Shown piece after piece: positions 3,010-46,564 of a DNA stretch of 64,000 bases (positions are counted from its first letter, which is position 1; each line of letters opens with the position of its first letter). A program made the position numbers and the translations under genes. Source of the stretch: a virus; IMG/VR virus record IMGVR_UViG_3300037258_000375, positions 41,299 through 105,298 of that record; one strand, written 5' to 3'. The notes under the pieces were generated by a model, which was not told where the DNA came from, did not search any database, and was given only the letters and a program-made list of their open reading frames with translations.

Positions 3010-3822
3010 ATGGCAGTTGAATGGGCATCGGAAGATATAAAGCGGGCGGGGGCACTTTACGTTGCATTCCCGGAAGACATCACCATTGTCGAGGAACTCA
3101 ACGGACGGCATGATCCGACCGACATCGAGGCTCTTGCCGCTGACATCGAAGCCAACGATCAGCACACGCCGGTTGGCCTTCGCAAGAATGACGACGGGCA
3201 ACCAGTGCTTGTGTACGGTCACCGCCGCTGGGAAGCGGTCGCGTTGCTCAACAAGAAGTACCCGCATAGCAAGCGCAAGCTTGTCGGCACCTATCTGAGC
3301 GTGGATGAGAACGGCGCGTTCATCGCCGCGATCAGCGAGAACCGTTTCCGCAAGGACGTATCCCCCATAGACGACTGTGCGAATATCAACACGCTGCGCA
3401 AGCGGCTGAAGTTCGCAGATGAGGACATCGCTAAGGTCTATTTCCCCGAAGCCAAGAGCAAGGAAGAACTCGCAGCGGCTCTCCGCTTCGTGAAGCAACG
3501 CGGATCGCTCATTGAACTCGCGCCCGAGGCAGCTACCGCCGTCCGCGAGGGCAAGGTCAAGGTAACCGCTGCCGTCAGGCTCGCGAAGCTCTCCAAGAAC
3601 TTGCAGCGCGAGAAGCTGAAAGAGCAGCCAGCCAAGATGAAGGCAAAGGACGTGCCCGCGCCGAAGCCGAAGCGTGAGAGCATTCCCGCGACCATGCTTC
3701 CCCTGGTGAAGAAGGCAATCAAGGACTTGCTGTTGAAAGACCTCGAAAACACGCAGTATCCCTACGTCGAGGTCAAGCGGGAGCCTATGCTTGCTCTCTA
3801 CCGTCTCATCAACCCTAGCTAG
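3010..3822 (+). CDS. ParB/Srx N-terminal domain protein
   Basis: LVYGHRRWEA and ISENRFRKDVSP motifs; GGGAGG RBS before ATG 3010. Confidence 0.85.
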   Translation: MAVEWASEDIKRAGALYVAFPEDITIVEELNGRHDPTDIEALAADIEANDQHTPVGLRKNDDGQPVLVYGHRRWEAVALLNKKYPHSKRKLVGTYLSVDENGAFIAAISENRFRKDVSPIDDCANINTLRKRLKFADEDIAKVYFPEAKSKEELAAALRFVKQRGSLIELAPEAATAVREGKVKVTAAVRLAKLSKNLQREKLKEQPAKMKAKDVPAPKPKRESIPATMLPLVKKAIKDLLLKDLENTQYPYVEVKREPMLALYRLINPS

Positions 3823-10616: not shown

Positions 10617-11381
10617 TCACGTTTTCCGACTCCACCGCTGGATGGGATTGATTAGCTCGATGTCGTCCGGAATTCTTTTGCCGAGGTAGAGCGCTTCGTC
10701 TGTGCGCGCATAATCCGTAATGGGGATCGGCGTACAGTGTGGAAAGGTGCCAACCGCCGCGATGATCTTAAAGTGGTTTTTGAGCGTCTCTCGCGCCTTC
10801 TCTGAAATCTGGAACCAGTCATCAACCATAACCTCTTGACCGCATCCTCGGAGGCTGTGAAGCTCCTCACTCCCGACGAAGTCAAGGCGGGCGAACTGAT
10901 GGGGGCGTCCTTCGCGGAGACGGCGGCGGGCAGCTTCGGCGATGATGTTCTCTTTGTGCGGAGAGATGATCGTGATGTGGCTCTGCGTTTGACTTGCGAC
11001 CTCTTCCGCGCTATCGAACAAGGCGGTGGTCTTTCCACTGCGGCGCTCGCAGTGCAGAACTGTTCCCTGCCGAAACGCGTCACGCATCATGCCGGTGCGT
11101 ATTGTCACAAGCTCAGGCGAGGGGCTTGTGCAAGATCGCATGTGATCGTCCAGCCTGTCGATGATATTGTGCGCGTACGTATGGAACCGCCGTGCATACT
11201 CCACGAACATCTCGCGCGCAACTTCGACCGGGATCGCGTCACATCTATGCTGCGCTTGCTCCTCGTAACTGTTGAGCATCCGGTTAAAGTGTTCTTCATC
11301 TGGATCGCGGCGTCGCGAAAGAGGAAGCATCGCTGGCTCAAATTTCTCGAACGGGCTTATTGAAAAATACTCCATTTGCAA
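10617..11381 (-). CDS. hypothetical protein with P-loop-like segment
   Basis: RRSGKTT and LRG...VMVDD. Confidence 0.5.
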   Translation of the reverse strand: MQMEYFSISPFEKFEPAMLPLSRRRDPDEEHFNRMLNSYEEQAQHRCDAIPVEVAREMFVEYARRFHTYAHNIIDRLDDHMRSCTSPSPELVTIRTGMMRDAFRQGTVLHCERRSGKTTALFDSAEEVASQTQSHITIISPHKENIIAEAARRRLREGRPHQFARLDFVGSEELHSLRGCGQEVMVDDWFQISEKARETLKNHFKIIAAVGTFPHCTPIPITDYARTDEALYLGKRIPDDIELINPIQRWSRKT

Positions 11382-11425
11382 TTATGGAACTATCGAGGTC
11401 GCCGATTTTCAAGCAGTCCTCTTGT

Positions 11426-11962
11426 TTATGCCCCGCGCGAAACAGTGAGAGAATCAATTTCGCCGAATAGTTCATATATATCATCCCAGTCTGGTGGATC
11501 GTAATCTTCTTTCTCCTCGTTCCATTTACCGCAAAACGGATTCACGCTCACTGATGTGCAGTGCAAACCAATCCCCGGTACATCCGGATTCGACAAGAAA
11601 AGCTCTCGCAGCGCTGGCCAGTGATTGACATTATCCGATGGAATCGAAAAGTCTTCGAGAAATACCTTGATCGCGTCGGCCATGCGCGGGTAGTCCTTCT
11701 TCGCGACATAAGCACGATCAAAGGTAAGCATGAAAACGGCTTTGTGCTCCGTTTTTACGCGCGGGTCTTTCCAGAGATTCCACAAGGTGTCCCCGAGTTG
11801 CATGTAGCCCTTGTTCGGGTGGTCATAAGACCTCGTTACGCTCAGATAGCGAGCGGCCATCAGTTCCCAAATTATCGGAGCCGACCCCCAGCTATTGCCG
11901 TATTCATCCAGCACGTCCACCCTATCTCCTGGATAAACTGCTATAACATCCGTCTGGCTCAT
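11426..11962 (-). CDS. hypothetical protein
   Basis: coupled ORF starting MSQTDV after GGAG. Confidence 0.6.
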   Translation of the reverse strand: MSQTDVIAVYPGDRVDVLDEYGNSWGSAPIIWELMAARYLSVTRSYDHPNKGYMQLGDTLWNLWKDPRVKTEHKAVFMLTFDRAYVAKKDYPRMADAIKVFLEDFSIPSDNVNHWPALRELFLSNPDVPGIGLHCTSVSVNPFCGKWNEEKEDYDPPDWDDIYELFGEIDSLTVSRGA

Positions 11963-39505: not shown

Positions 39506-39581
39506 TGGTGGGCGCGGAGGGCATCGAACCCCCGACCTTATGGTTAAGAGCCATCTGCTCTCCCAACTGAGCTACGCGCCC
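39506..39581 (-). tRNA. tRNA-Lys(CUU)
   Basis: loop CUCUUAA; CCA. Confidence 0.93.
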
Positions 39582-42140: not shown

Positions 42141-42172
42141 AAAAAAAGGGCTGCGGGGATTGGCCCCGCAGC
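42141..42172 (-). terminator. terminator of Y-RNA/Ro60 operon
   Basis: GCUGCGGGG-CCAAU-CCCCGCAGC followed by CCUUUUUUU. Confidence 0.8.
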
Positions 42173-42197: not shown

Positions 42198-42488
42198 CTA
42201 GATCGACTCGCCAAGGTCTGCCAACTCCTTGTCGATCTGCGCGCGCTTCTCCTGAGCAGTCTTAAGGCTCTCGCGCTCTGACTTCAACTGACGAATACGC
42301 GTCGCACGACGGTCTTCCATACGTGAAGAAATCTCACGGGAAATGGTATTCAGGTTATCGGAAACGTACTCCGGAACCGTGACCTTCTGTGCCTCGAACT
42401 CGCTACGAAGCTGCTTACCGAATGCTGACAGTGCGACAAGCTCATCGATGTCAGACTCTACATTGAAGTTCTTGAAATCCTGAAGCAT
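42198..42488 (-). CDS. small coiled-coil protein downstream of Ro60
   Basis: AGGAGG RBS before MLQDFK. Confidence 0.7.
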   Translation of the reverse strand: MLQDFKNFNVESDIDELVALSAFGKQLRSEFEAQKVTVPEYVSDNLNTISREISSRMEDRRATRIRQLKSERESLKTAQEKRAQIDKELADLGESI

Positions 42489-42601
42489 GGTCTTCCTCCT
42501 TTCCGCGATCCTCTGCTTCGAGAGATCGACAAAGATATTCTTCTTCGGAACCCTATTGCGGCTCGGGTTCTCATGCTTCTTGTTGTGGTAGTTCACTGCC
42601 A

Positions 42602-44110
42602 TCACACACCTACCAGTTCCGTATCCTTCAGCACATCGCTGAGCGACTTCAACGGCGTCGCCATGATCTCGTCAACGAGGCTGTACTGGTTCGACCGCAT
42701 CGTCTGCACAAGGTTCGGGATCGCATAATAGTCCGTCTTGCCGTCGCGAAGATCGAACGTCTGCATCTCGATACCCAGTGCATTCATGCGGTAGCTCAAG
42801 TTATCTGTACCGCCAGCGCAGTGGTAGAAGTAGACCGGCACGTCCTTATCCACGAACGTCGCATACTTCTTATACACATCCGGGAAGTGAGGTGCCCTAT
42901 TCTCCTCGCCGTCCGACACGATGGCAATGCCGTCAACCGCGATCTTCTCCGCCAGCATCCGATTCAGACCGCAACCGATGGACGTCGCCGAGCCAGTCTT
43001 GATGTGCTTCGTCGCGGCGATGACCTGATCCAGCGAGCAACCGGTGACATCTACAGTCATCGGAGTTTCGTCGAAGAACACGAGATACACCTTGCCCTTC
43101 ACGAACTGCGCCAGAGACGCCGCCACATGCTTACCGAACTCGATGCTCTTCTCCATGCTCGGGCTGCGATCCACCAGCACAAGCCAATCGCCAGCCGGAC
43201 CGCCAGCCTTCGCGATCTGCTTCGCCTGCAAGCCGCGCAGCTTCTCCTTCAGGCCCTCATCCGTGACGCCCTCGACTGCCTGGGTCGTCTTGAGCGTGTT
43301 CTGCGTAGACGTTGCCGCCTTCTGAAGTGCCTGCTCAAGCGCACCACGCAAAGCTGGGTTGGTCTTGACGCCGAGCTTCTCCAACATCTTCATGCTGGTC
43401 GCTAACTCGGTTGCCGTCATTTGGCCGATGAGGGCCAACACAAGGTCCGGCTCCTTCGCCTTCGCACCAAGAGCACCCGCAGCGATCAAGAACGGCACCT
43501 TGAACCTGATGATTGCGCCCGCCGCCTCAACCGGAGACATGTCCTTGAGGTGTGCCACTGCTTCGAAGACAGAGCCCTTCGGCAAAGCCAGCTTGGTCAC
43601 AACCACGGTACCGTCGATCTTCTCCTTCCACTGGCCGGAGATGACCGCAGCGACGCGGCGGTTACCAGGACCGGTACGTGAGAGCGCGTACAGCGCCTTG
43701 AGCACGCTGCGGTGCTGGATCGCGATGTGATCCCAGTTCCGTGACTCTTCCTTCTGCCGGAGATAGGCGCGAATCACGCGATCCATCTGCGACATCTTGC
43801 CCTTCGGACGAATCTCACGCACGAAATCGAAGGCGCGGCGCAACTCACGCGGGCCGAGCGCAGCCATGTGCGCGACGCTGTTGTCGAGTAATTCGAGATC
43901 ACTCTCGAACGCGAGGCCGAGAACCGGCAACGCGACCTTGCTGTCACGAATCTGACCATGCCGCGCGTTCCAGGCGATCAAATGCTGGAAGAACTCGCCA
44001 TCCTGCGCAATGGCCTGCTTGCCAACCTCGACATACTCGCCGAGCTTGCCGTGAGGAGACTTACTCAACTCGCTAAAAACCTTGGAGCGCGTTAAACCCT
44101 GCTTCTCCAT
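42602..44110 (-). CDS. Ro60/TROVE-vWA RNA-binding protein (divergent)
   Basis: helical N-domain (R..GQIRD) plus vWA with LVDRSPSM, T, IVSDGEEN; adjacent Y-like RNAs. Confidence 0.8.
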   Translation of the reverse strand: MEKQGLTRSKVFSELSKSPHGKLGEYVEVGKQAIAQDGEFFQHLIAWNARHGQIRDSKVALPVLGLAFESDLELLDNSVAHMAALGPRELRRAFDFVREIRPKGKMSQMDRVIRAYLRQKEESRNWDHIAIQHRSVLKALYALSRTGPGNRRVAAVISGQWKEKIDGTVVVTKLALPKGSVFEAVAHLKDMSPVEAAGAIIRFKVPFLIAAGALGAKAKEPDLVLALIGQMTATELATSMKMLEKLGVKTNPALRGALEQALQKAATSTQNTLKTTQAVEGVTDEGLKEKLRGLQAKQIAKAGGPAGDWLVLVDRSPSMEKSIEFGKHVAASLAQFVKGKVYLVFFDETPMTVDVTGCSLDQVIAATKHIKTGSATSIGCGLNRMLAEKIAVDGIAIVSDGEENRAPHFPDVYKKYATFVDKDVPVYFYHCAGGTDNLSYRMNALGIEMQTFDLRDGKTDYYAIPNLVQTMRSNQYSLVDEIMATPLKSLSDVLKDTELVGV

Positions 44111-44139: not shown

Positions 44140-44691
44140 TTATGGGAGTGTACGAGTTCTGAGATATTCGAGAAGGTCGATATAGCTGATCTTCTTCAAC
44201 TGGCACCACGCCACCGCCGACATACCACCTTTGTCTTTGTTGCATTTTCGGCACGCAGACAGGTAGTTACTCGGATCATTCAAGCCGCCCATCTCCAACG
44301 GATTGAAGTGGTCAATGGTCAATTGAACCTTGCCCATCGGCAGACTACAGTACACACATTTACAGCCGTCAGCCATCCATACTTTCTGCTGGACGGCACC
44401 GGAAATGTCGTAGCGTAGCTTCCGATGGAAAATCTTCTCCATCGAGCCTTGGACAAGAATCTCAGGATCGTCCGATCTCTGGAGCCAGTCCGACCATTCT
44501 TCGGTGGTAAGAATTCGAACTGACGCTACAGTAGAAAGACCACGCGCGTTCGGCAATAAGAACACGGCTTGCGCGCCTTCGCCGCCGATCACGACACCTT
44601 CAATTTTGAGGATGGAGCCTACGTCGCCGTGGAGAGCGGGACGATGGCGCAATTCTAGCTGATAAAATCTTGAGTCACTCGCCATCGTCAT
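44140..44691 (-). CDS. HNH nuclease with extra N-terminal domain
   Basis: DG.KCVYC, LTIDHF.P...GG....NY.SAC.KCN..K. Confidence 0.85.
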   Translation of the reverse strand: MTMASDSRFYQLELRHRPALHGDVGSILKIEGVVIGGEGAQAVFLLPNARGLSTVASVRILTTEEWSDWLQRSDDPEILVQGSMEKIFHRKLRYDISGAVQQKVWMADGCKCVYCSLPMGKVQLTIDHFNPLEMGGLNDPSNYLSACRKCNKDKGGMSAVAWCQLKKISYIDLLEYLRTRTLP

Positions 44692-44709
44692 CCCCCCGGA
44701 TCGAACTTA

Positions 44710-44843
44710 CGTGCTGTAGTCGATATGGCTTAGATTTTGCAGAGCCTTTCGGCCCGCGCCCCCCGTATATGAAGCCGGTATGGTGGTGGAAGGGGCCGGG
44801 GTTTCCCCCGGAACAAGATCATGTACCCATGTCAGTCAGCACG
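44710..44843 (-). ncRNA. Y-RNA-like unit 1
   Basis: GUGCU-GACUG-ACAUGGG-UACAUG...CCAUAU-CGACUAC-AGCAC. Confidence 0.8.
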
Positions 44844-44850
44844 AACTTAA

Positions 44851-44965
44851 TGCAGCGGCCAAGGAGGCAATTCGTAGCGGTAAAACCTGCTGTTGAGCTT
44901 CAGAGAGTCACTCGGCTCCGCTACACCCTTCTATTCCAGCCTCGGTAGGTCACCCCGCCGCTGCA
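44851..44965 (-). ncRNA. unknown rod-like structured RNA in Y array
   Basis: nested stems UGCAGCGGC/GCCGCUGCA, GAGGC/GCCUC, GUAGCGG/CCGCUAC. Confidence 0.6.
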
Positions 44966-44977
44966 AAACAAACTTGA

Positions 44978-45055
44978 TCGCGGTACCTTCTATGGCTCTC
45001 GAAGAGTACCTGTTTGGGATCGCATCCTTCTAAAGCCTTCCCTCGGGCACCGCGA
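44978..45055 (-). ncRNA. unknown four-way-junction RNA in Y array
   Basis: UCGCGGU/ACCGCGA closing three hairpins. Confidence 0.55.
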
Positions 45056-45058
45056 ACT

Positions 45059-45172
45059 TGGCTGGGGAACTCGGTTACGAGCCGAGAGCCTTCTTGCGAA
45101 GGCGCAAAGACATGTATCCAAGTCAGTCGGCAGTAACGCCGTAGTCGATCTGGAACTTCTTCAGTTCCCCAG
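45059..45172 (-). ncRNA. Y-RNA-like unit 2 (permuted; acceptor stem, T arm, CCA end)
   Basis: CGACUAC-GGC-loop-GCC-GACUG..UACAUG inside CUGGGGAA/UUCCCCAG-CCA. Confidence 0.8.
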
Positions 45173-45180
45173 TAAAACTT

Positions 45181-45241
45181 GCTGGCGGGAGTTGCCTCGG
45201 CACCTTCCACTCCCGGATCGCCTCGCGGCTGTCGAGCCAGC
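45181..45241 (-). ncRNA. unknown small three-way-junction RNA in Y array
   Basis: GCUGGC/GCCAGC, CGGGAGU/ACUCCCG, GCC-GCGA-GGC. Confidence 0.55.
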
Positions 45242-45249
45242 TAAATTAT

Positions 45250-45368
45250 TGGGGGCGGGTCTTGGATTCGAACCAAGATGCTCAGTTGATGAGACTTCGC
45301 TTTGCCATGTACCCGAATCTGTCAGCGTTTCCGCTGTAGTCGCTCCGGATTGTTTCATAACCCGCCCC
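45250..45368 (-). ncRNA. Y-RNA-like unit 3 (permuted; tRNA with D arm replaced by Y stem)
   Basis: GGCGGGU/ACCCGCC-C-CCA; CUUGG-UUCGAAU-CCAAG; CGACUAC..GACAG..UACAUG. Confidence 0.82.
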
Positions 45369-45375
45369 AACTTAC

Positions 45376-45498
45376 TGACCTGTAGTCGAAGTGCTATTCC
45401 CTTTCGGGAACGGAGTTGGAATTGAACCAACAACCTTCTGCTTAAGAGGCAGATGCTCTACCAAGTGAGCTATCCATGTAAGCACTTCAGTCAGGCCA
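45376..45498 (-). ncRNA. Y-RNA-like unit 4 carrying a tRNA-Lys(CUU) body
   Basis: Y stem enclosing D arm, UCUGC-CUCUUAA-GCAGA, T arm, GAAA hairpin. Confidence 0.85.
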
Positions 45499-45511
45499 TT
45501 CTCAAACTTAC

Positions 45512-45648
45512 TGGGCTGTAGTCGATCTGCTTGTGTTGCTAAGCGCTCTACCACTGAGCTAATCCCGCATAAAATTATGGGGCGGGATGAAGGATTCGAA
45601 CCTCCGACCTCTGCCTTGGAAGGGCATGTAAGCAAATCAGTCAGCCCA
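45512..45648 (-). ncRNA. Y-RNA-like unit 5, YrlA-type (T-acceptor-D order) from tRNA-Gly halves
   Basis: Y stem enclosing CUUCCAA arm, T arm, AUCCCGC-CCCA-spacer-GCGGGAU, D arm. Confidence 0.85.
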
Positions 45649-45655
45649 TACTTAC

Positions 45656-45731
45656 TGGCTTGTAGTCGTTCCGCATTGCCTTTCGGCGTGTTCGTGTTCA
45701 AAGCGATCATGTATGCGAAACAGTCAAGCCA
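45656..45731 (-). ncRNA. Y-RNA-like unit 6 (minimal)
   Basis: UGGCUU-GACUG-UUUCGCA-UACAUG...UGCGGAA-CGACUAC-AAGCCA. Confidence 0.8.
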
Positions 45732-45744
45732 TACTCAAAATTTC

Positions 45745-45861
45745 TCCGCTGTAGTCGTCTGGCAACCCCTTGCGGGGACACGGTCGGATTTGAACCGACT
45801 GCTTTTCATCCAAATTGAAATGTGGGACCAACCCACACATGTAAGCCAAACAGTCAGCGGA
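45745..45861 (-). ncRNA. Y-RNA-like unit 7 with degenerate tRNA body
   Basis: Y stem enclosing D-like arm, AUUUGGA loop arm, GUCGG-UUCAAAU-CCGAC, GCAA hairpin. Confidence 0.82.
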
Positions 45862-45881
45862 AACTCAAACTCAACTTCACA

Positions 45882-45910
45882 ACCTTACCACAACCCTGTC
45901 ATGCGCGCAA
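45882..45910 (-). promoter_or_regulatory. promoter of Y-RNA/HNH/Ro60 operon
   Basis: TTGCGC-17 bp-(TGG)TAAGGT with upstream A-tract; same TTGCGCGCAT as promoter at 48911. Confidence 0.65.
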
Positions 45911-46564
45911 TTTCTTTTTCTGCGCCGATCTATGGAGGGGCCGGAGGGAGTCGAACCCACGACCTGTTGATTCGTAGTCAACCGCTCTATCCGTCTGAGC
46001 TACGGCCCCGTGGTCGGGACTGTGGGATTCGAACCCACGACCACCTGTTCCCAAAACAGGAGCGCTACCTGACCGCGCCCAGTCCCGATACTCTAAGTCT
46101 TGGTCGGGGAGAGGGGATTCGAACCCCTGCATAGCCGAGCTACCTGCCCTTTGGTACGCGCCCAAGGATTCGAACCTCGGACCTCCGTCAGACTGCAACG
46201 GCGCTCTGACCACTGAGCTAGGCGCGTATGAAACATTCTTCTCACTCCACAGTTTATAGTTCTGCAAGACCGCGCGCTGTTCCTCATCGAGGGGCACGGT
46301 CACGACCGCTGTGAGACCAAGGTCATTGTCCGGCTCATAGAAAGCGGACGCATCGATGTGATGCAGCTTGAGCTTGGCAATGACTCTTTCGAGAGCTTTT
46401 TTGTTGGGGACGCCGATCAACACGAGGGACGGAACAAGATCATCCACACTCTGTGAAAGTGTGTAGGCCATCTCAAATGTCGCATGATTGGTCTGAATGA
46501 TCTGCTGCGCCAAGGTCAGGTCTTGGCGGACGAACAAGAAGTAGTATGGATTCCCCTAATGCAT
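45899..46564 (-). CDS. peptidyl-tRNA hydrolase 2-like protein with in-frame UAG at codon 3; ORF runs through downstream tRNAs
   Basis: YFLFVRQDL...QQIIQ..HA, LVL..V, F.EPD...GLTAV...P, L..Y.LW. Confidence 0.75.
45933..46009 (-). tRNA. tRNA-Arg(ACG)
   Basis: loop CUACGAA; CCA. Confidence 0.92.
46011..46087 (-). tRNA. tRNA-Pro(UGG)
   Basis: loop UUUGGGA; CCA. Confidence 0.92.
46101..46149 (-). pseudogene. internally deleted tRNA remnant (T arm plus CCA)
   Basis: AGGGG-UUCGAAU-CCCCU, CUCCCCG-A-CCA; no anticodon arm. Confidence 0.6.
46152..46227 (-). tRNA. tRNA-like RNA with non-canonical anticodon loop
   Basis: intact acceptor/D/T arms and CCA; loop GCAGUCU lacks U33 and purine 37. Confidence 0.7.

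What the first reader, a model, noticed from the sequence alone, without database searches (positions are those of the whole stretch)
45376..45498. Complete tRNA-Lys(CUU) body grafted onto a Y stem
Unit 4 keeps canonical D, anticodon (UCUGC-CUCUUAA-GCAGA) and T arms. Its acceptor stem is cut to about 3 bp and continues into a GNRA hairpin and the Y stem, so it cannot be charged. Unit 7 has the same layout with a UUG-type loop. A normal tRNA-Lys(CUU) exists at 39506. Established: Lys tRNAs are targets of anticodon nucleases such as PrrC. Inference: an unchargeable anticodon decoy.
Basis: partly seen in the sequence, partly recalled or inferred. Interest (0 to 1): 0.75.

Follow-up and report, generated by a model that had tools for sequence, protein, structure and literature searches.

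The report
Phage Y RNA carrying whole-tRNA module
This 123-base gene in an uncultured soil phage is a tRNA-shaped partner RNA (Y RNA) of a hidden Ro60-like protein encoded just downstream. Its three anticodon letters change freely between related phages, so it is unlikely to be a decoy specific for lysine tRNA.

Summary
At 45376-45498 (minus strand) a 16-bp bipartite stem encloses a tRNA-like cloverleaf. It has D, anticodon (CUCUUAA) and T arms, a 2-5 bp acceptor remnant, a GAAA-capped hairpin and no CCA.

It is unit 4 of seven Y-like RNAs. These lie upstream of an HNH ORF and a 502-aa protein that Pfam TROVE misses but that folds as Ro60 (Z 17-20 to human, Deinococcus and phage Ro60).

A covariance model finds the same stem-plus-cloverleaf RNA beside this protein in about 50 of 62 viral loci. 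That gives 49 distinct sequences, 96.8% of cells paired, and 25 of 28 pairs with compensatory changes.

The anticodon arm keeps tRNA geometry (5-bp stem, U33, A37, A38). The triplet is nearly random: 18 triplets in 37 sequences. About 30% are triplets that bacterial tRNAs do not normally carry, which is the chance expectation. The closest relative has UGU.

A Lys-specific (PrrC-type) decoy is therefore not supported. The best reading is a Ro60-docking Y RNA with an unpermuted tRNA-mimic module, a new variant of YrlA/Yrn1-type RNAs.

This scan has noted similar Ro60-partner RNAs before, including on another phage genome (e1-5968847).

The parts
45376..45498 (-). Unit 4: Y-type RNA with an unpermuted tRNA-like module (the finding)
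   Evidence: R1 112.4 bits over the full model; MFE fold z = -3.9; ARAGORN and Rfam tRNA calls inside it
45492..45498 (-). Outer helix, 5' strand (UGGCCUG); pairs with 45376-45382 (CAGGUCA)
   Evidence: helix 1 is 98.5% paired and all 7 pairs covary
45481..45489 (-). Inner helix, 5' strand; pairs with 45387-45395. An asymmetric internal loop, AC (45490-91) / ACUA (45383-86), separates it from the outer helix
   Evidence: helix 2 has 6 of 7 covarying pairs. The conserved motifs (U/G)ACUG and CGACU flank the loop
45475..45480 (-). UACAUG motif, invariant in all seven units and in all homologs. Its 3' half doubles as the acceptor 5' strand
   Evidence: (UACA invariant in 27 of 27)
45455..45470 (-). 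D arm (GCUC-ACUUGGUA-GAGC)
   Evidence: helix 3 is 100% paired
45437..45453 (-). Anticodon arm UCUGC-CUCUUAA-GCAGA; anticodon CUU at 45444-45446
   Evidence: helix 4 has 5 of 5 covarying pairs; the triplet is hypervariable
45415..45431 (-). T arm GUUGG-UUCAAUU-CCAAC
45410..45414 (-). Acceptor remnant, 3' strand UCCGU; pairs with AUGGA at 45473-45477
   Evidence: 5 contiguous bp; only 2 bp in the MFE fold
45398..45409 (-). GNRA-capped hairpin UCCC-GAAA-GGGA between the acceptor remnant and the Y stem
   Evidence: a GNRA- or UUCG-capped hairpin sits at this place in most homologs
45745..45861 (-). Unit 7: same layout, non-canonical D hairpin, loop AUUUGGA
   Evidence: R1 64 bits; Rfam tRNA 27.1 bits, below threshold; fold z = -3.6
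45656..45731 (-). Unit 6: minimal Y unit, the stem plus small hairpins
45512..45648 (-). Unit 5: YrlA-type unit (T arm, closed acceptor, D arm)
   Evidence: Rfam YrlA RF02553, 29 bits, E = 0.001, below the gathering score of 69; fold z = -3.4
45250..45366 (-). Unit 3: permuted unit. The Y stem is capped by GAAA and sits inside a tRNA-like RNA with open acceptor ends, a T arm and an encoded CCA
   Evidence: motif order 3' then 5'; sequence
45059..45171 (-). Unit 2: second permuted unit
44710..44843 (-). Unit 1: Y stem with a non-tRNA module
45882..45910 (-). Promoter-like TTGCGC-N17-TAAGGT just upstream of the first unit
   Evidence: Read from the sequence. The same element sits at the same place in L001 and L002. 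The consensus scan did not call it
44140..44691 (-). HNH endonuclease ORF between the array and the Ro60-like gene
   Evidence: Pfam HNH_5 1.3e-9, HNH 7.7e-9
42602..44110 (-). Ro60-like protein (502 aa; helical-repeat ring plus vWA domain)
   Evidence: AF2 pLDDT 79.5; the top 13 Foldseek hits are all Ro60/TROVE; VIA-align Z 16.6-19.9 over 417-441 residues; Pfam gives only a weak VWA_CoxE match
42150..42172 (-). Terminator-like hairpin (9 bp, 8 G-C) plus a T run, after the small ORF at 42198-42605

Best explanation
Unit 4 is one of seven paralogous Y RNAs encoded in a phage cassette. The cassette reads: promoter-like site, seven Y units, an HNH ORF, a Ro60-like gene, a small ORF and a terminator.

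All units share a constant docking module. It consists of a 7-bp outer helix, a conserved asymmetric internal loop, a 7-9-bp inner helix and the motif UACAUG. By inference, this module binds the adjacent Ro60-like ring protein.

The units differ in their variable module. In unit 4 that module is an almost complete tRNA cloverleaf in its natural order, joined to the stem through a shortened acceptor helix and a GNRA hairpin.

Selection maintains tRNA shape: the D/T elbow nucleotides, a 5-bp anticodon stem, a 7-nt loop, U33 and A37/A38. It does not maintain the anticodon triplet. The module therefore most likely acts as a generic tRNA mimic. It could tether the Ro60 particle to a protein that recognises tRNA shape (a modification or processing enzyme, an exonuclease such as PNPase, or a translation factor), or it could stabilise the RNA. 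Described Y RNAs tether Ro60 to effectors in this way.

Shown here: the structure, its conservation, the linkage to a Ro60-fold gene, and the anticodon turnover. Inferred: Ro60 binding, the tethering role and the partner.
For: (1) Structure. The MFE fold has z = -3.9. Across 49 distinct homologs, 96.8% of cells are paired, 25 of 28 pairs show double-sided changes, and the covariation score is 0.816. Shuffled controls give 0.183 and slid controls at most 0.134.

(2) Linkage. The downstream 502-aa protein folds as Ro60. About 50 of 62 viral loci fetched through that protein carry a full-length R1 match of at least 59 bits, 0.03-2.5 kb upstream on the same strand. True tRNAs score at most 53 bits, and mostly over only part of the model. 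Three MAG contigs carry it as well. In a pattern scan of viral contigs made without reference to the protein, every R1 match of 85 bits or more lay on a contig with a Ro60-like gene.

(3) Y RNA kinship. The neighbouring unit 5 matches Rfam YrlA, sub-threshold at 29 bits, in the T/acceptor/D order. All units share one stem, and its helices covary.

(4) Vertical descent. The array is syntenic unit for unit in L001 and L002. The body is only 68% identical to the phage's own tRNA-Lys(CUU), no closer than to tRNA-Ile, but it is close to orthologous units such as L009.

(5) Anticodon. U33 is kept in 34 of 37, A37 in 30 of 37 and A38 in 32 of 37, while positions 34-36 are near maximal entropy.

(6) Precedent. 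Y RNAs with tRNA-like modules, their recognition by tRNA enzymes, and phage Ro60-Yrl-PNPase complexes are published (PMC4201824, PMC12135203).
Against: No binding or expression data exist. All relatives are metagenomic, and the only GenBank phage hit is an unannotated 595-kb record at 28% identity.

The stem matches neither Rfam Y_RNA nor the stem part of YrlA. The published 5'-strand motif GNCGAAN0-1G is not evident.

Most loci were fetched through the Ro60-like gene, so the linkage is largely one-directional.

The partner of the tRNA-like module is unknown. The phage record (89% complete) encodes no RtcB, CCA-adding enzyme or canonical TROVE protein.

Some triplets recur (UGA 6, CUU 5, AAU 4). 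The data cannot separate shared ancestry from selection as the cause.
Confidence: 0.75

Rival explanations
1. Lys-specific anticodon-nuclease decoy. The unchargeable tRNA-Lys(CUU) look-alike soaks up a PrrC-type nuclease and so protects the real tRNA-Lys.
For: The 7-nt loop CUCUUAA is identical to that of the phage's own tRNA-Lys(CUU). The anticodon arm keeps tRNA form. The phage carries 28 tRNAs and a tmRNA, a repertoire often linked to tRNA-targeting defences. tRNA-Lys anticodon nucleases exist (PMC1484252). CUU recurs in 5 of 37 orthologs, some of them distant.
Against: The triplet is not conserved. There are 18 triplets in 37 sequences. The nearest relatives carry UGU (L071, L001) while the rest of the body stays about 90% identical. 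The classical PrrC substrate is the UUU isoacceptor with a modified wobble base (my own knowledge; not checked in the papers). No nuclease or RNA-repair gene is linked.
Confidence: 0.04
2. Diversifying bait. The anticodon arm is a bait for anticodon-reading host proteins, and its triplet changes quickly because each phage lineage tracks its own host's defence.
For: The triplet turns over much faster than the rest of the cloverleaf. Triplet identity is 50% in pairs whose bodies are at least 90% identical, while the loop flanks stay conserved. Earlier notes of this scan on other Ro60-like phage systems raise the same idea.
Against: About 30% of triplets (10-11 of 37) are ones bacterial tRNAs do not normally use. 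That equals the 28% expected for random triplets, so there is no sign of selection to copy real anticodons. Six of 43 loops have 5, 6, 8 or 13 nt. At these divergences unconstrained sites are saturated anyway, so plain lack of constraint explains the data.
Confidence: 0.1
3. A genuine tRNA precursor. Its leader and trailer happen to pair, and RNase P plus 3' trimming release a working tRNA-Lys.
For: tRNA detectors call it. Some distant orthologs have a 7-bp acceptor followed by NCCA (L010, L017, L023, L060, L062, L036/L037). M. smegmatis YrlA is cut by RNase P and receives CCA (PMC4201824).
Against: In the window the acceptor is at most 5 bp, with mismatches at 1-72 and 2-71, and there is no CCA, although all 28 true tRNAs here encode it. 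Orthologs carry nonsense anticodons and irregular loops. The flanking stem and UACAUG are conserved and shared with units that have no tRNA body.
Confidence: 0.03
4. The shared stems are processing signals, for example RNase III-type sites that cut units out of a polycistronic tRNA-cluster transcript. They are not Ro60 docking sites, and the linkage to the Ro60-like gene is incidental.
For: The stems are long (about 16 bp) with an internal loop, like some RNase III sites. The array lies inside a tRNA cluster, and units are followed by AAGUU-like spacers.
Against: In units 2 and 3 the same stem is an internal, loop-capped hairpin inside a tRNA-like RNA and not a flanking stem. The conserved single-stranded motifs and the constant position next to a Ro60-fold gene, across 37-80% protein identity, argue for a protein-binding module.
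Confidence: 0.06

Closest known systems
D. radiodurans Yrn1 (Y RNA bound by Rsr/Ro60)
   Same: The paired 5' and 3' ends form the Ro-binding stem. The module inside has the natural order D-like arm, 'anticodon arm' (5-bp stem), T arm, so the stem takes the acceptor position (PMC4201824).
   Different: As described in the paper, Yrn1 has a 6-nt 'anticodon loop', no variable region and a doubtful D arm. Unit 4 has a full cloverleaf that scores 56.6 bits with Rfam tRNA, a 7-nt loop with U33 and A37, an extra GNRA hairpin, and a different stem sequence. I made no direct sequence comparison.
YrlA (Rfam RF02553) of Salmonella, mycobacteria and mycobacteriophages
   Same: A Ro60-linked ncRNA with a tRNA-like module, encoded next to the Ro60 gene, with several paralogs per locus. 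Unit 5 of this array has the YrlA order.
   Different: In YrlA the order is T arm, closed acceptor, D arm. The stem replaces the anticodon arm, so there is no anticodon loop. Unit 4 is not permuted, keeps the anticodon arm and does not match RF02553. The GNCGAAN0-1G motif is not evident.
Thermus phage phiLo Ro60 with Yrl1/Yrl2 (PDB 9KOP, 9L5Y; PMC12135203)
   Same: A phage-encoded Ro60 with Y-like RNAs just upstream. The protein model aligns to phiLo Ro60 at Z 16.6-18.6.
   Different: The passages of the phiLo paper that I read describe stem-bulge-stem RNAs and mention no tRNA-like module. That phage has two RNAs, not seven. Protein identity is about 12%.
[quoted passage not shown]
   Same: It shows that a Y RNA's tRNA-like module can be handled by tRNA enzymes. 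Distant orthologs of unit 4 with a 7-bp acceptor plus NCCA may behave in the same way.
   Different: The window's unit has an acceptor of at most 5 bp and no CCA. Chen et al. saw no RNase P cleavage of the two Y RNAs that lack a 7-bp acceptor-like stem.

Membership tests
Y RNA (Ro60-associated ncRNA), broad sense | Encoded next to a Ro60 ortholog | tested here: met
   A Ro60-fold protein lies 1.3 kb downstream on the same strand. The same linkage holds in about 50 of 62 loci.
Y RNA (Ro60-associated ncRNA), broad sense | The 5' and 3' ends pair into a long stem with a conserved bulge or internal loop, plus a variable module | tested here: met
   Folds; covariation of both helices around conserved loop motifs.
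Y RNA (Ro60-associated ncRNA), broad sense | Physically bound by Ro60 | not testable with these tools
   Needs RIP or EMSA.
Y RNA (Ro60-associated ncRNA), broad sense | Match to the Rfam Y_RNA (RF00019) model or to the published Ro-binding motif | tested here: not met
   No Y_RNA match at E <= 10 in 44500-46300. GNCGAAN0-1G is not evident on the 5' strand. A resemblance of the 3' strand (GACUA) to metazoan Y RNAs rests on my memory only.
YrlA (RF02553) | T arm, closed acceptor-like stem, D arm, with the stem in the anticodon position; score at or above 69 bits | tested here: not met
   Unit 4 gives no YrlA match. Only unit 5 matches, at 29 bits. The arm order in unit 4 is that of a natural tRNA.
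Functional tRNA | Cloverleaf with D, anticodon and T arms | tested here: met
   Rfam tRNA 56.6 bits; ARAGORN call.
Functional tRNA | 7-bp acceptor stem with a free 5' end and a 3' NCCA | tested here: not met
   At most 5 bp and no CCA, against 28 of 28 true tRNAs with an encoded CCA. Both ends continue into the stem.
Functional tRNA | Anticodon conserved among orthologs | tested here: not met
   18 triplets in 37 orthologs, including nonsense ones.
Ro60/TROVE protein (the neighbour) | Helical-repeat ring plus a C-terminal vWA domain | tested here: met
   Full-length structural matches to 10 Ro60 entries, Z 16.6-19.9. vWA-only entries follow at Z 14 or below.
Ro60/TROVE protein (the neighbour) | Pfam TROVE (PF05731) sequence match | tested here: not met
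   No match in the whole record or in the hmmscan of the protein. No PDB sequence match either, even with a profile.
Anticodon-nuclease decoy (hypothetical class) | Anticodon loop constrained to copy a real target tRNA | tested here: not met
Anticodon-nuclease decoy (hypothetical class) | Protects tRNA from cleavage | not testable with these tools
   Needs a biochemical competition assay.

The most novel reading that the evidence does not exclude
The anticodon arm is a fast-evolving specificity element. These phages would use a Ro60 particle armed with whole-tRNA look-alikes, with triplets retuned lineage by lineage, to bait or capture host proteins that read anticodons (tRNA-cleaving defence nucleases or modification enzymes). 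Ro60/Y RNPs would then be a counter-defence system acting on the contest over tRNA.
Probability: 0.1. Interest if true: 0.85.

Novelty: new variant of a known kind. Interest (0 to 1): 0.6.

Why it matters
Y RNAs with tRNA-like modules are known, but the purpose of the tRNA mimicry is an open question. This family gives a large natural series of at least 49 distinct sequences. In it the module is a whole cloverleaf in natural order, the acceptor ranges from 1 bp to 7 bp plus CCA, and the anticodon triplet is free. The series shows which tRNA features are under selection (the elbow and the geometry of the anticodon arm) and which are not (anticodon identity and, in most members, an acceptor end).

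It also reveals a large clade of Ro60-like proteins that the Pfam TROVE model did not detect in this protein or its phage record. The protein search returned 918 relatives at E <= 0.001, mostly on phage contigs of about 100-140 kb from metagenomes.

With three topologies of the same RNA in one array, the locus is a compact system for testing how Ro60 docking and tRNA mimicry combine.

Tried and rejected
- Recent copy of the phage's own tRNA-Lys(CUU): rejected. Identity is 68%, no better than to tRNA-Ile(UAU) at 69%.
- Canonical TROVE, RtcB or CCA-adding enzyme in the phage record: none found in an 89%-complete record.
- Sequence searches of the Ro60-like protein against PDB, single sequence and profile: no hits. 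Only the fold comparison identified it.
- Cultured phage relatives: none. The one hit is an uncultured 595-kb record at 28% identity.
- Exact Y-stem motif scan in divergent loci: it failed outside the closest clade because the helices covary and the loop motif shifts from GACUG/CGACUAC to UACUG/CGACUU. The covariance model solved this.
- Pattern scan of viral contigs for UACAYG plus a D arm: it returned mostly ordinary tRNAs scoring 52-72 bits. Only the matches of 85 bits or more were true members.
- The consensus promoter scan did not call the promoter-like element that I read by eye.
- The ~210 nt between units 1 and 2 give no significant fold and no Rfam match.
- Neighbouring ORFs gave no RNA-repair or nuclease context.

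Full report
CONTEXT

The window is the 3' 64 kb of a 105-kb IMG/VR virus record, 89% complete. Its minus strand carries 28 tRNA genes with encoded CCA, a permuted tmRNA, and an array of structured RNAs between 44710 and 45868.

Each of the seven units carries the motif (G)ACWG-N7-UACAUG and the motif CGACUAC. In five units these two motifs lie on the 5' and 3' strands of a terminal stem. In two units (45059-45171 and 45250-45366) the order is inverted and a loop caps the stem.

THE OBSERVATION

Unit 4 (45376-45498, minus strand) reads, from 5' to 3':
- outer helix UGGCCUG
- AC
- inner helix UGAAGUGCU
- UACAUG, whose AUG plus the following GA starts the acceptor remnant
- D arm
- anticodon arm UCUGC-CUCUUAA-GCAGA
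- AGGUU
- T arm GUUGG-UUCAAUU-CCAAC
- UCCGU
- hairpin UCCC-GAAA-GGGA
- AU
- inner helix AGCACUUCG
- ACUA
- outer helix CAGGUCA

ARAGORN and Rfam both call the body a tRNA (Lys-CUU; 56.6 bits), with the two outermost acceptor pairs mismatched. RNAfold gives this architecture at -47.4 kcal/mol, z = -3.9. In that fold only 2 acceptor pairs form, because the GNRA hairpin competes for the U residues. Up to 5 contiguous pairs are possible.

There is no CCA. Unit 7 (45745-45861) has the same layout with loop AUUUGGA and a non-canonical D hairpin. A normal tRNA-Lys(CUU) lies at 39506-39581.

THE NEIGHBOUR IS A CRYPTIC Ro60

Downstream on the same strand lie an HNH ORF (44140-44691) and a 502-aa ORF (42602-44110). 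Pfam gives the 502-aa ORF only a weak VWA_CoxE match, and PHROGs gives 'RNA-binding protein' over the C-terminal part.

Pfam TROVE finds nothing in the whole record. PDB sequence searches find nothing either.

An AlphaFold2 model built on 36 homologs (pLDDT 79.5) matches Ro60 over its full length:
- The top 13 Foldseek hits are all Ro60/TROVE.
- VIA-align gives Z 16.6-19.9 over 417-441 residues to human, Xenopus, Deinococcus and Thermus-phage phiLo Ro60. vWA-only entries follow at Z 14 or below.

The family is large, with 918 hits at E <= 0.001, and is known only from metagenomes. The sole GenBank phage hit is an unannotated 595-kb record at 28% identity. Six MAG contigs carry the protein, four of them binned with Acidobacteriota.

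THE RNA IS A CONSERVED CLASS LINKED TO THAT PROTEIN

I fetched 62 viral loci through the protein, at 37-80% identity. In L001 and L002 the array is syntenic unit for unit.

ARAGORN calls an isolated 'tRNA' shortly upstream of the protein in many divergent loci. In 26 of 26 such cases that were not true tRNAs, the body is enclosed by a perfectly complementary 7-bp outer helix and preceded by UACAYG.

I built a covariance model from 27 of these sequences (R1). It finds full-length matches of 59-123 bits in about 50 of the 62 loci, 49 distinct sequences in all. True tRNAs score at most 53 bits, and mostly over only part of the model.

On the structural alignment:
- 96.8% of cells are paired.
- 25 of 28 pairs show changes on both sides.
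- The covariation score is 0.816, against 0.183 for shuffles and at most 0.134 for slid partners.
- All seven outer-helix pairs and all five anticodon-stem pairs covary.

The alignment was fitted to the model, which favours the structure. An independent RNAalifold run on a plain MAFFT alignment gave the same helices, with 19 of 22 pairs covarying.

In a pattern scan of the viral collection that did not use the protein, the matches of 85 bits or more all lay on contigs with a Ro60-like gene. One of these contigs was new and carries a more distant homolog.

THE ANTICODON

Of 43 distinct unit-4-type sequences, 37 have 7-nt loops. Within these:
- U33 is kept in 34, A37 in 30 (purine in 35) and A38 in 32.
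- Positions 34, 35 and 36 have entropies of 1.71, 1.98 and 1.66 bits.
- There are 18 different triplets: UGA 6, CUU 5, AAU 4, UGU 3, UUC 3 and so on. One row was mis-registered, so UCA is 2 and CAU is 2.
- About 10-11 of 37 are triplets that bacterial tRNAs do not normally carry (AAU, AAA, ACU, AGU, UCA, UUA). By my count 18 of 64 triplets fall in that class, or 28%.
- Six loops have 5, 6, 8 or 13 nt.

Pairs whose cloverleaves are otherwise at least 90% identical share only 50% of their triplet letters. The background is about 29%.

In the window's own clade the triplet is CUU (window, L002, L005) or UGU (L001, and the closest relative L071 at 78% protein identity). The window's body is no closer to the phage's tRNA-Lys(CUU), at 68%, than to its tRNA-Ile(UAU), at 69%. 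It is close to orthologous units. It is therefore an old, vertically inherited module and not a recent graft.

What is conserved is the geometry of the anticodon arm, not its reading.

THE ACCEPTOR END VARIES

Across the family the acceptor runs from 1 to 8 contiguous pairs. About eight loci keep 7 bp followed by NCCA before the RNA continues into the stem. This points to an origin from a CCA-encoding tRNA gene.

It also raises the possibility of RNase P and CCA handling in those lineages, as shown for M. smegmatis YrlA (PMC4201824). [quoted passage not shown]

MECHANISM

Published work shows several relevant points (PMC4201824, PMC12135203):
- Y RNAs dock on Ro60 through their terminal stem.
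- Their variable module tethers effectors such as PNPase.
- YrlA modules are recognised by tRNA enzymes.
- A phage Ro60 with two Y-like RNAs forms complexes with host PNPase.

By analogy, unit 4 is best read as a Ro60-docking RNA. Its effector module is a generic tRNA mimic that engages a protein recognising tRNA shape, or that stabilises the RNA. This step is inferred.

The decoy idea survives only in a diversifying form. The random-looking spectrum of triplets does not favour that form.

COMPARISON AND NOVELTY

The topology, with the stem at the acceptor position and a natural arm order, is that described for D. radiodurans Yrn1. Unit 4 differs in having a complete cloverleaf. It is not a YrlA: the arm order differs and there is no RF02553 match.

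I found no paper describing this arrangement. The scan itself has noted the same kind of RNA on another phage genome and in other Ro60-like phage systems. Those are unverified notes that agree with what I tested here.

I rate it a new variant of a known kind.

Noticed in passing
window 42602-44110 (-): A Ro60-fold protein that the Pfam TROVE model and PDB sequence searches miss. The protein search returned 918 relatives at E <= 0.001; where sources named the 120 listed, it was as hypothetical protein (one as ChlD).
   Followed up: yes
window 45250-45366 and 45059-45171 (-): Two units are circular permutations. The docking stem is a loop-capped hairpin inside a tRNA-like RNA with open acceptor ends, a T arm and an encoded CCA. 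These could be matured like tRNAs.
   Followed up: partly
window 45475-45480 and the same position in every unit and homolog: UACAYG is invariant next to the inner helix in all unit types, including units without a tRNA body. In unit-4-type RNAs with short acceptors it pairs with the segment after the T stem, with compensatory changes (UACAUA with UAUGU in L051; ACG with CGU in L042).
   Followed up: partly
L010:3903-4031, L017:3124-3250, L023:4060-4185, L060:4423-4537, L062:4643-4766, L036:4835-4970, L037:1625-1761: Orthologs whose tRNA body has a 7-bp acceptor followed by NCCA inside the RNA, before the 3' strand of the stem. Several carry nonsense anticodons (AAU, AAA) or a 6-nt loop.
   Followed up: partly
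window 45745-45861; L006:3674-3791; L007:3817-3934; L011:2733-2851; L013:3998-4114; L034:4436-4536; L058:4544-4668: In the unit-7-type paralogs, and in L058, the loop keeps a YUGG(A/C) motif across distant loci, unlike the free triplet of most unit-4-type RNAs. L001, L002 and L005 depart from this.
   Followed up: no
window 45882-45910 (-); L001 ~3603-3631; L002 ~2934-2962: A conserved promoter-like element, TTGNNN-N17-TA(A/G)GGT, sits directly upstream of the first unit. This suggests that the array, the HNH ORF and the Ro60-like gene form their own transcription unit, ending at the terminator at 42150-42172.
   Followed up: partly
window 44850-45058 (-): About 210 nt between units 1 and 2 carry no docking motif. 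This stretch is absent from L001 and L002. It has long terminal complementarity, but no significant fold and no Rfam match.
   Followed up: partly
window 44140-44691 (-); L001 4425-4975; L002 3880-4440 and 4446-4987: An HNH ORF with a conserved N-terminal domain lies between the array and the Ro60-like gene in the closest clade, twice in L002. In other loci, such as L036, the unit abuts the gene.
   Followed up: no
L071-L076 (MAG contigs): Four of the six MAG contigs that carry the Ro60-like gene are binned with Acidobacteriota. This is a weak hint at the host.
   Followed up: no
L086:4075-4201; L155:8796-8930: In unrelated viral contigs, a tRNA-Lys(UUU)-like gene with a 7-bp acceptor is preceded by UACAUG. 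In L086 a perfect stem of about 17 bp also encloses it; L155 shares the 5' side. No Ro60-like gene was found in the DNA held.
   Followed up: no
L152:7675-7801 (-) and 11075-11614 (-): A full R1 match (85.7 bits) lies on a 142-kb contig whose only Ro60-like match is distant (25% over 186 aa) and sits 3.3 kb upstream. This suggests the RNA class extends to further protein clades.
   Followed up: no
window 46152-46227 (-): ARAGORN calls a tRNA-Thr with anticodon AGU (A34) and an encoded CCA, which is unusual for bacteria.
   Followed up: no
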